NCBI GenBank assembly: GCA_964016885.1
Contig: OZ024760.1
Location: forward strand, 15,128,001-15,192,000
Reading direction: 5' to 3'
Source of the DNA: Eledone cirrhosa
Lineage: Eukaryota
DNA length: 64,000 nucleotides
Shown here: positions 21,712-63,855 of the stretch, piece by piece
How the letters are laid out: each line of letters begins with the position of its first letter
Position numbering within the stretch: the stretch's first letter is position 1
The notes under the pieces: model-generated
What the model was told of the DNA's origin: nothing
Databases searched by the model: none
The model's input: only the letters and a program-made list of their open reading frames with translations
Translations under genes and position numbers: made by a program

Positions 21712-21777
21712 GGCCTCCAGGCGTACCCCATAGATTAGTAAAGAGTTACTTTCTGCGACCCATTTTGTGTATTTACT
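21712..21777 (+). CDS. PIK3R1: PIK3R-like exon, C1A part 1 ([22 protein letters not shown])
   Basis: tttcag acceptor, gtaagt donor, phase 1-1, H-x12-C start of a C1 domain. Confidence 0.85.
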
Positions 21778-63700: not shown

Positions 63701-63855
63701 TGTCCTGCTTCATACGACCTTCCCCATCGACAGGAGAACCTGTGGCTTATGTCTTGTCAACGAGACGAGGCTGAACGACTGCTTGAGGGCAAGCCTGACG
63801 GCACTTTCCTAATTCGACCTAAAAATAACGGACAATTTTATGCATTGTCTATTGT
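21712..63855 (+). CDS. PIK3R1: PI3-kinase class IA regulatory subunit (p85/PIK3R-like), partial 20-exon gene: C1-SAM-C1-RhoGAP-nSH2-iSH2-cSH2
   Basis: Hand-spliced exons give p85-family signatures [54 protein letters not shown], iSH2 EMNSLKPEL and cSH2 [16 protein letters not shown]. All introns are GT-AG. Open at both ends. The symbol denotes the family, not strict orthology. Confidence 0.95.
21878..22250 (-). mobile_element. CR1-like LINE 3' end
   Basis: Reverse complement of the 10104 family, with a 60-bp duplication. Confidence 0.8.
23308..23690 (+). mobile_element. CR1-like LINE 3' end, 3' UTR duplicated
   Basis: Diverged copy followed by a second UTR and (ATT)n. Confidence 0.72.
24812..25271. 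mobile_element. Tandem dimer of MITE M1
   Basis: Two direct copies joined at GGGTTAAACCGGCC (about 25037). Confidence 0.8.
25562..26070 (-). mobile_element. RTE-clade LINE fragment with inverted 5' segment
   Basis: Minus 25562-25770 encodes the C-terminus [27 protein letters not shown]; plus 25784-26070 encodes [24 protein letters not shown]. Confidence 0.92.
26209..26256 (+). CDS. PIK3R1: PIK3R-like exon, C1A part 2 ([16 protein letters not shown])
   Basis: ttgcag acceptor, gtaagc donor, phase 1-1, continues the C1 Cys spacing. Confidence 0.85.
26826..26894 (-). ncRNA. Type I hammerhead ribozyme motif within a fold-back element
   Basis: Minus strand: CTCTGT CTGACGA [37-nt imperfect stem II] GAAACC TTT GGTA ATGGAG. 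Confidence 0.55.
27129..27184 (-). ncRNA. Minimal type I hammerhead ribozyme motif
   Basis: Minus strand: ATTTTAT CTGATGA AAGC-ACACA-AAAAC-TGTGT-CCAT GAAAT ACGT ATA ATAAAAT. 7-bp stem I, palindromic ATACGTAT stem III. Confidence 0.7.
27638..27918 (-). mobile_element. SINE family A, 5'-truncated
   Basis: Same sequence, stops just past the B box. Confidence 0.85.
29466..29840. repeat. GGGGTAGTACTCATGATG-based minisatellite
   Basis: Direct inspection. Confidence 0.88.
30011..30405. repeat. About 30-bp minisatellite CTGGAGATACCTG(GGT)n
   Basis: About 11 units. Confidence 0.9.
32908..33249 (-). mobile_element. SINE family A, full length
   Basis: Near-identical to the other copies. Confidence 0.88.
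34560..35280. repeat. About 105-120-bp tandem repeat family, also dispersed at 455-1050
   Basis: GGCCTCCCAAAAGCTTGCATCTCAGATGAGGATTCTCAGCTGTTTTAATGATAGGGG units. Confidence 0.85.
35721..35905 (+). mobile_element. SINE family B inserted in a CR1 3' UTR remnant
   Basis: Flanked by duplicated ATTATTCTATG. Confidence 0.82.
37013..37468. mobile_element. hAT-like MITE
   Basis: TIR CAGGGGCGAAGGGT / ACCCTTCGCCACTG, 8-bp TSD GTGTGTAT/GGGTGTAT, internal (CA)n. Confidence 0.8.
39286..39384. mobile_element. Tc1/mariner-like mini-MITE
   Basis: TIR CACGGTGTCCCAAA / TTTGGGACACCCTG followed by TA. Confidence 0.7.
39628..39811 (-). mobile_element. SINE family B
   Basis: Same consensus. Confidence 0.8.
40951..41054 (+). 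CDS. PIK3R1: PIK3R-like exon, C1A part 3 ([35 protein letters not shown])
   Basis: ttgtag acceptor, gtaagt donor, phase 1-0, C-x4-H-x2-C..C; not in the ORF track. Confidence 0.88.
41162..41784. mobile_element. Cluster of three MITE M1 copies; the first two are inverted about a shared TTAA
   Basis: Boundaries at 41162, 41384 and about 41581. Confidence 0.8.
42934..43068 (+). CDS. PIK3R1: PIK3R-like exon, SAM domain part 1 ([45 protein letters not shown])
   Basis: SAM pattern W-T-x3-V-x2-W..L..Y...F....I.G..L; tttcag/gtttgt, phase 0-0. Confidence 0.92.
43457..43537 (+). CDS. PIK3R1: PIK3R-like exon, SAM domain part 2 ([27 protein letters not shown])
   Basis: ttacag/gtcagt, phase 0-0, GI....H...L...I..L SAM C-terminal helix. 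Confidence 0.9.
43570..43790 (+). mobile_element. SINE family B
   Basis: Same consensus, (ATT)n tail. Confidence 0.8.
43802..44452. repeat. Compound minisatellite (TG)n-(TA)n-AAATGTGCTTGGTGA
   Basis: About 9 units. Confidence 0.9.
44583..44640 (+). CDS. PIK3R1: PIK3R-like linker exon ([19 protein letters not shown])
   Basis: Pyrimidine tract plus ccag, gtaagt donor; its 0-1 phase is needed to join the SAM and C1B exons. Confidence 0.7.
45199..45318 (+). CDS. PIK3R1: PIK3R-like exon, C1B part 1 ([40 protein letters not shown])
   Basis: H-x12-C-x2-C-x13-C; accag/gtatgt, phase 1-1. Confidence 0.93.
46247..46345 (+). CDS. PIK3R1: PIK3R-like exon, C1B part 2 ([33 protein letters not shown])
   Basis: C-x4-H-x2-C-x7-C; catag/gtaagt, phase 1-1. 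Confidence 0.93.
46516..46700 (+). mobile_element. SINE family B
   Basis: Same consensus. Confidence 0.8.
46782..46950. repeat. GC-rich 28-bp tandem repeat x6
   Basis: GAGGTCCGAAAGGTGGGTGAGCGCTGCT. Confidence 0.92.
47074..47184 (+). CDS. PIK3R1: PIK3R-like exon, RhoGAP part 1 ([37 protein letters not shown])
   Basis: FGVDL...P.....CV.EIE RhoGAP start; ttgcag/gtaagt, phase 1-1; not in the ORF track. Confidence 0.92.
47540..47830 (+). other. Intronic C2H2 zinc-finger-coding segment (2 intact, 1 broken), probably a LINE 3' remnant
   Basis: [42 protein letters not shown], frameshifted [18 protein letters not shown]. Confidence 0.7.
47997..48074 (+). CDS. PIK3R1: PIK3R-like exon, RhoGAP part 2 with arginine-finger position ([26 protein letters not shown])
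   Basis: YRxS motif; tttcag/gtgagt, phase 1-1. Confidence 0.92.
48521..48655 (+). CDS. PIK3R1: PIK3R-like exon, RhoGAP part 3 ([45 protein letters not shown])
   Basis: Canonical LK.YLRELP.P.IP motif; cacag/gtaagt, phase 1-1. Confidence 0.95.
48923..49235. repeat. (CT)n microsatellite
   Basis: Direct inspection. Confidence 0.97.
49276..49475 (+). CDS. PIK3R1: PIK3R-like exon, RhoGAP part 4, with apparent frameshift near 49321-49327
   Basis: The entry frame reads [16 protein letters not shown]; the homologous [37 protein letters not shown] is in another frame. 200 nt does not fit phase 1 in / phase 2 out. Confidence 0.85.
49700..50395. repeat. AT-rich, about 22-bp minisatellite
   Basis: TATATTATTTATATAATATCTG units. 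Confidence 0.92.
50434..50552 (+). CDS. PIK3R1: PIK3R-like exon, RhoGAP end plus proline-rich motif ([39 protein letters not shown])
   Basis: ttccag/gtaagt, phase 2-1. Confidence 0.9.
50964..51033 (+). CDS. PIK3R1: PIK3R-like exon, nSH2 start ([23 protein letters not shown])
   Basis: AEWYWG p85 signature; ttctag/gttggt, phase 1-2. Confidence 0.93.
51461..51553 (+). CDS. PIK3R1: PIK3R-like exon, nSH2 core ([31 protein letters not shown])
   Basis: FLVRDAS phosphotyrosine-binding motif; ttccag/gtaagt, phase 2-2. Confidence 0.96.
52041..52347 (+). CDS. PIK3R1: PIK3R-like exon, nSH2 end plus iSH2 start ([13 protein letters not shown]...ENHSKTSQ)
   Basis: Strong p85 similarity; ttccag/gtaaat, phase 2-0. 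Confidence 0.96.
52446..52723. mobile_element. hAT-like MITE
   Basis: TIR CAGTCATGGGCAACCT / AGGTTGCCCATGCCTG, 8-bp TSD GTTTATAA/GTTTATAT. Confidence 0.85.
53433..53590 (+). mobile_element. RTE-like LINE C-terminal remnant
   Basis: [23 protein letters not shown]....DRGLWR. Confidence 0.75.
54163..54206 (-). ncRNA. Minimal type I hammerhead ribozyme motif
   Basis: Minus strand: TTAATT CTGATGA GTCT-CAGAA-GGAT GAAAC ATAT GTA AATTAA. Full core, 6-bp stem I, palindromic mini stem III. Confidence 0.75.
54417..54460 (+). ncRNA. Minimal type I hammerhead ribozyme motif (inverted copy)
   Basis: TTAATT CTGATGA GTTCC-AGGT-GGAT GAAAC ATGT GTA AATAAA. Confidence 0.65.
54637..54755 (+). CDS. PIK3R1: PIK3R-like exon, iSH2 ([39 protein letters not shown])
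   Basis: Matches the p85 iSH2 pattern E.Q.K..A..AF.ET...FEEQ; gtgcag/gtaagc, phase 0-2. Confidence 0.94.
54900..55437. repeat. Pyrimidine-rich minisatellite
   Basis: CCCCCATCTCCACCATCACCATTCCTCTTTACTAACTCTCTCT units. Confidence 0.92.
55483..55659 (+). CDS. PIK3R1: PIK3R-like exon, iSH2 ([58 protein letters not shown])
   Basis: MNSLKP signature; ttccag/gtaagt, phase 2-2. Confidence 0.95.
55679..55870 (+). mobile_element. SINE family B
   Basis: Same consensus, 20 nt after a splice donor. Confidence 0.8.
56142..56207 (+). CDS. PIK3R1: PIK3R-like exon, iSH2 end ([21 protein letters not shown])
   Basis: ttacag/gtaagt, phase 2-2, L.Q.G..Q..L...L pattern. Confidence 0.88.
56420..56860 (+). mobile_element. 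Degenerate RTE-like LINE 3' remnant
   Basis: Frameshifted [31 protein letters not shown] and [16 protein letters not shown]. Confidence 0.7.
57179..57585 (+). mobile_element. SINE family C with five tandem copies of its 34-bp head
   Basis: CTGTGGAGGTGTGTGGCCTAGTGGTAAGGGTGTT x5, then the SINE body. Confidence 0.78.
58566..58803. repeat. 60-bp tandem repeat x4 inside a MITE M1 copy
   Basis: Successive 60-nt lines are nearly identical. Confidence 0.9.
59303..59483 (-). mobile_element. SINE family B
   Basis: Same consensus. Confidence 0.8.
60110..60517. mobile_element. Inverted dimer of MITE M1 sharing TTAA at 60325
   Basis: TAAATGCTAAAGGG-TTAA-CCCTTTAGCATTTA junction. Confidence 0.85.
60945..61123 (+). 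mobile_element. SINE family B
   Basis: Same consensus. Confidence 0.8.
62200..62600. repeat. About 50-bp tandem repeat derived from the SINE-A-like central region
   Basis: GACTGGGTGCTTTTTGTCATGGCACCAGCACTACCACCTTACAGG units. Confidence 0.82.
63694..63855 (+). CDS. PIK3R1: PIK3R-like exon, cSH2 start ([53 protein letters not shown])
   Basis: LPH....W..R.EAE.LL.GK.DGTFLIR; accag/gtgagt, phase 2-2; the gene continues beyond the window. Confidence 0.95.

What the first reader, a model, noticed from the sequence alone, without database searches (positions are those of the whole stretch)
21712..63855. PI3K regulatory subunit with a C1-SAM-C1-RhoGAP front end
Seen: phase-compatible exons join two C1 zinc fingers and a SAM domain to the RhoGAP-SH2-iSH2-SH2 core. 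Known: vertebrate p85 has SH3+RhoGAP there and insect p60 has only SH2-iSH2-SH2; C1+RhoGAP is the chimaerin/RacGAP1 arrangement. Inference: a PI3K adaptor that could combine lipid (DAG) sensing, SAM oligomerisation, Rho/Rac GAP activity and pTyr binding. Similar architectures may exist in other invertebrates, so it may be ancestral and uncharacterised rather than unique.
Basis: partly seen in the sequence, partly recalled or inferred. Interest (0 to 1): 0.8.

Follow-up and report, generated by a model that had tools for sequence, protein, structure and literature searches.

The report
Ancestral long-form PI3K regulatory subunit
This is an octopus's ordinary PI3K regulatory subunit in the long form shared by many invertebrates and by choanoflagellates and already described in print for molluscs and shrimp; its two extra C1 fingers likely do not sense diacylglycerol and its GAP-like domain is likely weak or inactive.

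Summary
Twenty GT-AG exons (21712-63855, +) encode C1-SAM-C1-RhoGAP-SH2-iSH2-SH2(start), 93% identical to the annotated Octopus sinensis PI3K regulatory subunit. Two corrections: the window carries two one-base gaps in RhoGAP exon 12 that break the frame (a spliced contig of a public run has both bases, so probably assembly error), and orthologues carry an SH3 upstream of the window, so C1-SAM-C1 lies between SH3 and RhoGAP and does not replace SH3. The layout is not special to octopus: I found it in molluscs, many insects, crinoids, hemichordates, flatworms, Hydra and choanoflagellates; vertebrates most likely lost C1-SAM-C1. It is in print for molluscs (PMC4617754) and shrimp (PMC12817958). 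Best reading: a normal class IA adaptor with an ancestral docking module. Of residual interest: a sponge and one choanoflagellate keep a canonical DAG-type C1b, and the sponge a canonical GAP signature.

The parts
21712..21777 (+). Exon 1 of the model (internal, phase 1): end of linker and start of C1a (His1, Pro11, Cys14)
   Evidence: matches P0001 130-155 at 88%
26209..26256 (+). Exon 2: middle of C1a (Trp22-Gly23; Cys at 24, Val at 27)
   Evidence: (94% to P0001 154-169)
40951..41054 (+). Exon 3: end of C1a and linker to SAM
   Evidence: 97% to P0001 169-203
42934..43068 (+). Exon 4: SAM domain, first part
   Evidence: Pfam SAM_1 7e-9, SAM_2 5e-9; nearest solved SAMs Shank2, neurabin, SARM1
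43457..43537 (+). Exon 5: SAM domain, last helix
   Evidence: 97% to P0001 247-275
44583..44640 (+). Exon 6: SAM-C1b linker
   Evidence: matches P0001 275-293 at 58%
45199..45318 (+). Exon 7: C1b, first part (Met at 11, Arg at 13; Gly23, Leu24, Gln27, Gly28 kept)
   Evidence: Pfam C1_1 1e-7; alignment to PKC C1 domains
46247..46345 (+). Exon 8: end of C1b and linker to RhoGAP
47074..47184 (+). Exon 9: start of the RhoGAP/BH domain
   Evidence: 82%
47997..48074 (+). Exon 10: RhoGAP, arginine-finger loop (Tyr-Arg kept)
48521..48655 (+). Exon 11: RhoGAP core with the conserved Lys and Arg
   Evidence: Pfam RhoGAP 1e-10; its last 30 bases are the loose end of the X3 contig
49276..49475 (+). Exon 12: RhoGAP second half, lacking the Asn/Val/Pro determinants; two one-base gaps in the window (behind 49316 and 49324) shift the frame
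50434..50552 (+). Exon 13: end of RhoGAP and proline-rich motif
   Evidence: 97%; its first 30 bases are the loose end of the X3 contig
50964..51033 (+). Exon 14: linker and start of nSH2
51461..51553 (+). Exon 15: nSH2 with the FLVR motif
   Evidence: Pfam SH2 3e-6
52041..52347 (+). Exon 16: end of nSH2, start of iSH2
   Evidence: 100% to P0001 over 102 aa
54637..54755 (+). Exon 17: iSH2
   Evidence: Pfam PI3K_P85_iSH2 7e-10
55483..55659 (+). Exon 18: iSH2
   Evidence: Pfam PI3K_P85_iSH2 2e-10
56142..56207 (+). Exon 19: end of iSH2
63694..63855 (+). Exon 20: linker and first half of cSH2 with the FLIR motif; the gene goes on beyond the window
   Evidence: Pfam SH2 6e-6

Best explanation
The exons encode an octopod class IA PI3K regulatory subunit of the long, likely ancestral form (SH3 predicted upstream of the window)-C1-SAM-C1-RhoGAP-SH2-iSH2-SH2, which likely works like vertebrate p85, with C1-SAM-C1-RhoGAP likely serving as a docking module rather than a DAG sensor or a strong Rho GAP. 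Shown: exon chain, domain order, orthology, splicing of exons 11-12-13, missing C1 and GAP consensus residues. Inferred from established p85 biology: iSH2 holds the p110 catalytic subunit, the SH2 domains keep it inhibited until they bind phosphotyrosine motifs on receptors or adaptors, and the complex then makes PIP3 at the membrane. Inferred, untested: the two atypical C1 fingers and SAM add protein or anionic-membrane contacts that tune where the complex sits, and the BH-like domain binds small GTPases with at most p85-like weak GAP activity. Vertebrates most likely lost C1-SAM-C1 as a block. The frameshift in the window is most likely an assembly error.
For: Exon-by-exon match to O. sinensis P0001 and 93.3% identity of the joined model. 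P0001 matches p85alpha at E 4e-130, with SH3 (3-95) and RhoGAP-to-cSH2 (373-972) aligned and nothing between; the predicted fold's 49 best matches are p85alpha-containing entries. Run X3 contig is spliced at both ends of exon 12, has the two missing bases, and continues for 951 bases, the exact sum of exons 13-19; 1463 bases precede exon 12, against 1035 for exons 1-11. Exact order C1-SAM-C1-GAP-SH2-iSH2-SH2 in 84 of 322 fetched proteins, 43 of them with SH3; named carriers of the C1-SAM-C1-GAP-SH2 front include choanoflagellates, Hydra, flatworms, an annelid, a nemertean, crinoids and hemichordates. Quick tree: 5 vertebrate short forms are one clade (100) placed with long-form crinoids and hemichordates (88), long forms outside. 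C1 consensus Pro11, Gly23, Gln27, Gly28 (PMC9110374) is complete in only 3 of 84 C1a and 4 of 166 C1b with canonical spacing, and in neither window C1. GAP: Asn, Val, Pro determinants (PMC8305018) are replaced by Lys, Glu, His; the finger Arg is kept in only 79 of 179 long forms. Shrimp orthologue with two C1 and SAM: knockdown lowers PIP3 and pAkt (PMC12817958).
Against: No binding or activity was measured; residue rules come from PKC and human RhoGAPs. C1b keeps Gly23 and Gln27 in 166 of 166 and a hydrophobic residue at 24, which could mean ligand binding survives. In 23 of 23 aligned mollusc proteins the finger Arg, the Lys and the second Arg (which human p85alpha lacks) are all kept, so the mollusc GAP looks more canonical than p85 in its first half. 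The three front-end junctions were not seen directly in reads of this species; they rest on splice signals, orthologues and contig length. The tree is the quick one, the deuterostome node is not starred, long branches meet, and no amphioxus or tunicate was sampled. Whether the sequenced animal really carries the two gaps was not tested.
Confidence: 0.78

Rival explanations
1. Same gene, but the front end is a working chimaerin-like module: C1b binds DAG (perhaps at low affinity) and the RhoGAP domain turns off Rac/Cdc42/Rho, so the adaptor links PLC, Rho-family and PI3K signals.
For: The C1b-RhoGAP stretch matches beta2-chimaerin (302-552, E 1e-32), and chimaerins are the best matches of the GAP alone. 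C1b keeps Phe8, Gly23, Leu24, Gln27, Gly28. Finger Arg, Lys and second Arg kept in 23 of 23 molluscs. A sponge and Salpingoeca urceolata have a fully canonical C1b with Trp22, and the sponge a canonical GAP signature.
Against: Pro11 is called strictly conserved and DAG-contacting and is Met here, Leu/Met/Val in 151 of 166; position 13 is Arg or Lys in 126 of 166 instead of aromatic; position 22 is Arg in 94 of 166. C1a lacks Gln27 and Leu24. GAP lacks Asn/Val/Pro determinants whose absence is given as the reason p85 has no detectable RhoGAP activity. The shrimp protein expressed alone was mainly cytoplasmic (DAG not tested).
Confidence: 0.16
2. The frameshift in exon 12 is real in this animal: a null or truncating allele that would end the protein inside the RhoGAP domain and separate the front end from the SH2 core.
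For: The window sequence read straight stops at codon 384.
Against: Both gaps shorten a short run of one base, 8 bases apart; the X3 contig (depth 59.6) is otherwise identical over the exon and keeps the frame; the other 19 exons are intact and 93% identical to O. sinensis.
Confidence: 0.04
3. The C1/SAM exons and the SH2 exons belong to two separate genes.
For: The front-end junctions were not seen directly in reads of this species; intron 2 is 14.7 kb.
Against: Single proteins with all domains in O. sinensis, O. vulgaris, Argonauta and cuttlefish; the same domain set on short assembled contigs (P0003 1048 aa on 3715 bases, P0025 1014 aa on 5233), which leaves no room for such introns; 1463 bases precede exon 12 on the X3 contig.
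Confidence: 0.02

Closest known systems
Octopus sinensis PI3K regulatory subunit alpha isoform X1 (XP_029649998.1, P0001) and mollusc class IA subunits of Philippon et al. 2015 (PMC4617754)
   Same: 93.3% identical over 781 residues, same domain order; the paper reports C1 and SAM before RhoGAP-SH2-iSH2-SH2 in Mollusca (section 11).
   Different: Species orthologue only; the window lacks the SH3 exons and the end of cSH2 and has two one-base gaps. The paper's text does not give two C1 domains, an SH3 in molluscs or C1 in choanoflagellates (Fig. 6 itself not seen).
Penaeus vannamei PI3Kp85alpha (PMC12817958)
   Same: Two C1 domains and a SAM absent from human p85; knockdown lowers PIP3 and pAkt; recruited in a Src-dependent way (passages).
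   Different: The extra domains were not tested; the authors speculate on a crustacean-virus adaptation, whereas the layout is far older. I did not fetch the shrimp sequence.
Human p85alpha/p85beta (PIK3R1/2)
   Same: SH3, RhoGAP/BH, proline motif, nSH2-iSH2-cSH2 all align with the orthologue; residues matching R151, K187, R274 and both SH2 FLVR arginines are kept.
   Different: No C1-SAM-C1 in p85; octopus has Arg where p85alpha has L191, Lys for V263 and His for P270 (numbering from PMC5940657).
Chimaerins (alpha/beta), C1-RhoGAP Rac GAPs
   Same: Adjacent C1-RhoGAP, E 1e-32 over 302-552; finger Arg and Lys kept.
   Different: No iSH2 or SAM in chimaerins (recalled); octopus C1b lacks Pro11 and the GAP lacks the Asn and Gly-Pro of chimaerin; overall similarity to p85 is far higher (E 4e-130).

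Membership tests
Class IA PI3K regulatory subunit (PIK3R1/2/3 family) | RhoGAP/BH followed by SH2-iSH2-SH2 | tested here: met
   Pfam on exons and orthologue; PMC4617754 section 11
Class IA PI3K regulatory subunit (PIK3R1/2/3 family) | p110-binding iSH2 coiled coil (PF16454 above cut-off) | tested here: met
   39.2 and 41.4 bits on two exons, cut-off 31.5; two long helices 703-769 and 774-842 in the orthologue model
Class IA PI3K regulatory subunit (PIK3R1/2/3 family) | Phosphotyrosine-binding arginine (FLVR) in both SH2 domains | tested here: met
   FLVR and FLIR in the model, aligned to p85alpha; role of the motif is recalled
Class IA PI3K regulatory subunit (PIK3R1/2/3 family) | Orthology by tree | tested here: met
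   Sister to O. sinensis (99), inside molluscs (100), quick tree of 30 rows
Class IA PI3K regulatory subunit (PIK3R1/2/3 family) | Binds and regulates p110 | not tested
   No experiment possible; shrimp knockdown lowers PIP3 and pAkt (PMC12817958)
C1 domain fold | His-x12-Cys-x2-Cys-x13-Cys-x2-Cys-x4-His-x2-Cys zinc-ligand pattern | tested here: met
   Both window C1 domains match
DAG/phorbol-responsive (typical) C1 | Strictly conserved Pro11, Gly23, Gln27, Gly28 | tested here: not met
   C1a has Val27; C1b has Met11
DAG/phorbol-responsive (typical) C1 | Hydrophobic cage: aromatic 13, hydrophobic 20, 22, 24 | tested here: not met
   C1a Leu13, Tyr20, Trp22, Cys24; C1b Arg13, Phe20, Phe22, Leu24
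DAG/phorbol-responsive (typical) C1 | Measured DAG or phorbol-ester binding | not testable with these tools
   Needs a binding or translocation assay
Catalytically active RhoGAP (chimaerin, p50RhoGAP type) | Arginine finger and conserved lysine (Arg282, Lys319), Arg323 | tested here: met
   definitions from PMC8305018
Catalytically active RhoGAP (chimaerin, p50RhoGAP type) | Binding determinants Asn391, Val394, Pro398 | tested here: not met
   Lys, Glu, His in the window; p50RhoGAP numbers were carried over by spacing from the chimaerin alignment, not by a direct alignment
Catalytically active RhoGAP (chimaerin, p50RhoGAP type) | Measured GTPase stimulation | not testable with these tools
   Needs an enzyme assay
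SAM domain | SAM_1/SAM_2 profile above cut-off, five-helix fold | tested here: met
Polymerising SAM domains | Head-to-tail self-association | not testable with these tools
   Needs biochemistry on the purified domain

The most novel reading that the evidence does not exclude
The p85 adaptor began, before animals, as a DAG-gated, chimaerin-like Rho GAP fused to the PI3K-binding SH2-iSH2-SH2 core; the sponge still has the working module, molluscs keep part of it (low-affinity DAG binding by C1b and residual GAP activity), and the 'dead' BH domain of human p85 is its relic. That would give a direct PLC/DAG input into class IA PI3K in non-vertebrates and explain why p85 carries a pseudo-GAP.
Probability: 0.2. 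Interest if true: 0.62.

Novelty: already known. Interest (0 to 1): 0.24.

Why it matters
As a gene in this genome it is ordinary. The wider point is that human p85 and fly p60 are probably cut-down forms and the 8-domain form is the norm from choanoflagellates to molluscs and many insects, yet in my searches no one has tested its C1-SAM-C1 block. The residue pattern sets up a cheap test: canonical DAG-type C1b in a sponge and a choanoflagellate, degenerate in nearly all bilaterians. For annotators, the two one-base gaps in exon 12 would wrongly truncate this gene.

Tried and rejected
No whole genome is held for the window, so the SH3 exons and the last exons could not be located; sensitive tblastn of the orthologues' first 135 residues against the window gave only low-complexity matches. 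A first guess for the exon 6 acceptor was wrong and shifted the frame; the acceptor at 44583 is right. An alternative acceptor or small intron to explain the exon 12 shift was looked for and not found. No RNA holder was listed among 13 runs; run kinds were mostly unknown. SAM self-association was sent to complex prediction on the orthologue's SAM (2 copies; the alignment was not used): no verdict, score 0.18 against a mark of 0.32. The O. bimaculoides model P0002 lacks parts of the GAP and iSH2 and looks mis-spliced; it was not used as evidence. The careful tree did not finish; only the quick tree is reported. The AlphaFold model (pTM 0.48) gives domain folds but no reliable domain arrangement. 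Paper searches for single-residue C1 mutant data gave nothing usable; searches for the layout gave the two papers cited. Earlier findings of the scan: nothing in three look-ups.
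Full report
1. What is in the sequence. The window is repeat-rich animal DNA (199 tandem-repeat rows); no whole genome is held. On the + strand I find 20 exons from 21712 to 63855, all with AG acceptors and GT donors. Eighteen exons were scanned singly against Pfam; SAM, C1_1, RhoGAP, SH2 (twice) and iSH2 (twice) came out above their cut-offs, one exon gave weak SH2/iSH2 hits, and ten gave nothing relevant. The first C1 is spread over three small exons and is seen only after joining. The exons match the annotated Octopus sinensis protein P0001 (1008 aa) in order (exon 6), and the joined model is 782 aa with 729 of 781 aligned residues identical to P0001, 91.3% to Argonauta and 77.9% to cuttlefish. 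The animal is therefore an octopod (inference).

2. Joined as they stand, the exons stop at codon 384, because exon 12 (49276-49475) starts in one frame and ends in another. A 2616-base contig of run X3 (depth 59.6) covers exactly this exon, has one extra base behind 49316 and one behind 49324, and no other difference. Its loose ends are the last 30 bases of exon 11 and the first 30 of exon 13, so it is a spliced copy. After exon 12 it runs for 951 bases, the exact sum of exons 13-19; before it lie 1463 bases, against 1035 for exons 1-11, which leaves 428 for the part upstream of the window. These sums support the model but do not show the front-end junctions directly. Both gaps shorten a short run of one base, so an assembly error is the likely cause (inference); a true allele was not excluded.

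3. The front end does not replace SH3. P0001 residues 3-95 align with the SH3 of human p85alpha, and 373-972 with its RhoGAP-to-cSH2 part (E 4e-130 overall). C1-SAM-C1 fills the gap. The SH3 and linker have no match in the window, and exon 1 begins in phase 1, so they lie upstream. The AlphaFold model of P0001 has all eight domains folded (mean pLDDT 79.8) but no reliable arrangement (pTM 0.48); 49 of its 50 listed fold matches are p85alpha-containing entries and the 50th is chimaerin 1.

4. Distribution. Three protein searches and one profile search gave 322 proteins, including isoforms and fragments. With domain profiles built from my own alignment (circular for its 32 rows), 43 show SH3-C1-SAM-C1-GAP-SH2-iSH2-SH2, 41 the same without SH3, and 59 start at SAM. 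Named carriers of C1-SAM-C1-GAP plus SH2 domains include bivalves, gastropods, Lingula, Tubulanus, Dimorphilus, flatworms, spiders, a scorpion, a myriapod, crustaceans, crickets, a planthopper, Anopheles dirus, Megaselia, crinoids, hemichordates, Hydra and three choanoflagellates (two Salpingoeca, Hartaetosiga); bees, ants and wasps carry at least SAM, C1 and RhoGAP; the sponge Ephydatia has SH3-SAM-C1-GAP-SH2-iSH2-SH2. Pfam confirms the set independently for five of these; the iSH2 hit is below cut-off in S. urceolata and absent in Hydra. In a quick tree of 30 rows on the GAP-to-cSH2 part, the five vertebrate short forms are one clade (100) beside long-form crinoids and hemichordates (88, not starred), with long forms outside. 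Loss of C1-SAM-C1 on the way to vertebrates is the simplest reading; long branches meet, the careful tree did not finish, and no amphioxus or tunicate was sampled.

5. Do the C1 domains bind DAG? Katti et al. (PMC9110374; passages) name Pro241, Gly253, Gln257 and Gly258 of PKCdelta C1B (positions 11, 23, 27, 28) as strictly conserved, and a cage of aromatic 13 and hydrophobic 20, 22, 24. Window C1a has Pro11, Trp22, Gly23, Gly28 but Cys24 and Val27; C1b has Phe20, Phe22, Gly23, Leu24, Gln27, Gly28 but Met11 and Arg13. Across 184 long-form proteins, I counted the domains with canonical spacing (84 of 108 C1a, 166 of 184 C1b; the rest dropped): C1a has Pro11 in 84 of 84 but Gln27 in 5; C1b has Gly23 and Gln27 in 166 of 166 but Pro11 in 4; all four residues occur in 3 C1a and 4 C1b. 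Three of those four C1b also have Trp22 and an aromatic 13: the sponge, S. urceolata and one unnamed protein. Against my reading: the invariance of Gly23 and Gln27 may mean a ligand still binds, though the same paper gives Gln27 a structural role too. Verdict: both octopus C1 domains fail the membership test for typical C1; DAG sensing is unlikely but untested.

6. Is the RhoGAP active? The review PMC8305018 (passages) names Arg282 and Lys319 as the catalytic pair and Arg323, Asn391, Val394, Pro398 as binding determinants mostly missing in p85, which shows no detectable RhoGAP activity. PMC7458397 and PMC5940657 (passages) report GTPase binding and weak GAP activity of p85alpha, mainly on Rab5. 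Against chimaerins, the octopus domain keeps the finger Arg, the Lys and the second Arg but has Lys, Glu and His at the Asn, Val and Pro places (p50RhoGAP numbers carried over by spacing). Among 179 long forms the finger Arg is kept in 79, the Lys in 170, the second Arg in 151, the Pro in 6. Against my reading: 23 of 23 aligned molluscs (of 24 picked) keep Arg, Lys and Arg. The sponge has the whole canonical signature. Verdict: likely a p85-like GTPase-binding domain with weak or no Rho-family activity.

7. How it most likely works. As in vertebrate p85 (established knowledge, recalled): iSH2 binds p110, the SH2 domains restrain it until they bind phosphotyrosine motifs, and the complex makes PIP3. 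Both FLVR-type arginines, the proline motif before nSH2 and the arginine matching R274 are kept. The shrimp orthologue, which has two C1 and a SAM, is mainly cytoplasmic alone, joins Src at the membrane, and its knockdown lowers PIP3 and pAkt (PMC12817958; passages). I infer that SH3-C1-SAM-C1-BH is a docking module for partner proteins, small GTPases and perhaps anionic membrane. The SAM is nearest to those of Shank2, neurabin and SARM1 among solved structures; whether it self-associates is open.

8. What is known. Philippon et al. 2015 (PMC4617754; abstract, sections 11 and 12 read; Fig. 6 and supplements not seen and may show the full order) report C1 in mollusc, cnidarian and ichthyosporean subunits, SAM in molluscs, arthropods and choanoflagellates, and SH3 in choanoflagellates. 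The 2025 shrimp paper states two C1 and a SAM outright (its Fig. S1B not seen). RefSeq already annotates the O. sinensis protein. In four searches of the held library I found no test of the extra domains and no residue-level comparison; most subscription papers are not in that library.

9. Verdict. Real, one gene, already known in layout; interest 0.24. What remains worth a bench test is the contrast between the canonical C1b and GAP of the sponge and the degenerate ones of bilaterians (novel case, probability 0.2).

Noticed in passing
window 51599-51627 (weaker copies at 51717-51732, 51851-51866): A 29-base exact copy of the 3' end of exon 15 with a GT after it lies 46 bases into intron 15; it could act as a decoy donor.
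   Followed up: partly
window 56207, run X3 contig: The spliced contig ends, by arithmetic, exactly at the end of exon 19, before the 7.5 kb intron; this may mark alternative splicing or unspliced RNA at that junction.
   Followed up: no
window 13445-15592: A 48-base minisatellite of about 45 copies, upstream of exon 1, is open for 743 codons in one + frame; likely only because the unit has no stop and is a multiple of three.
   Followed up: partly
window 25571-26017: Reverse-transcriptase fragment (RVT_1, E 1e-6) in intron 1, a retroelement remnant.
   Followed up: partly
window 47527-47772: Open stretch with two C2H2 zinc fingers in intron 9 (zf-C2H2_4, E 3e-8), probably the tail of a retroelement.
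   Followed up: partly
proteins P0207 (Ephydatia), P0227 (Salpingoeca urceolata), P0268 (unnamed): C1b has the full DAG-binding consensus with Trp22; the sponge GAP has the full canonical signature.
   Followed up: partly
proteins P0239, P0251 (choanoflagellates): Both C1 domains have lost some zinc-binding cysteines in these two species.
   Followed up: no
protein P0216 (Bradybaena similaris): A second, 1132-aa p85-like protein in this snail with GAP-SH2-iSH2-SH2 and no C1 or SAM call, beside the long form P0073: a possible duplicate that lost the block independently.
   Followed up: no
arthropod long forms: Position 22 of C1b, the membrane-inserting aromatic of PKC, is Arg in 94 of 166 proteins, seen in the arthropod rows, which suggests a switch to a charged surface.
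   Followed up: no
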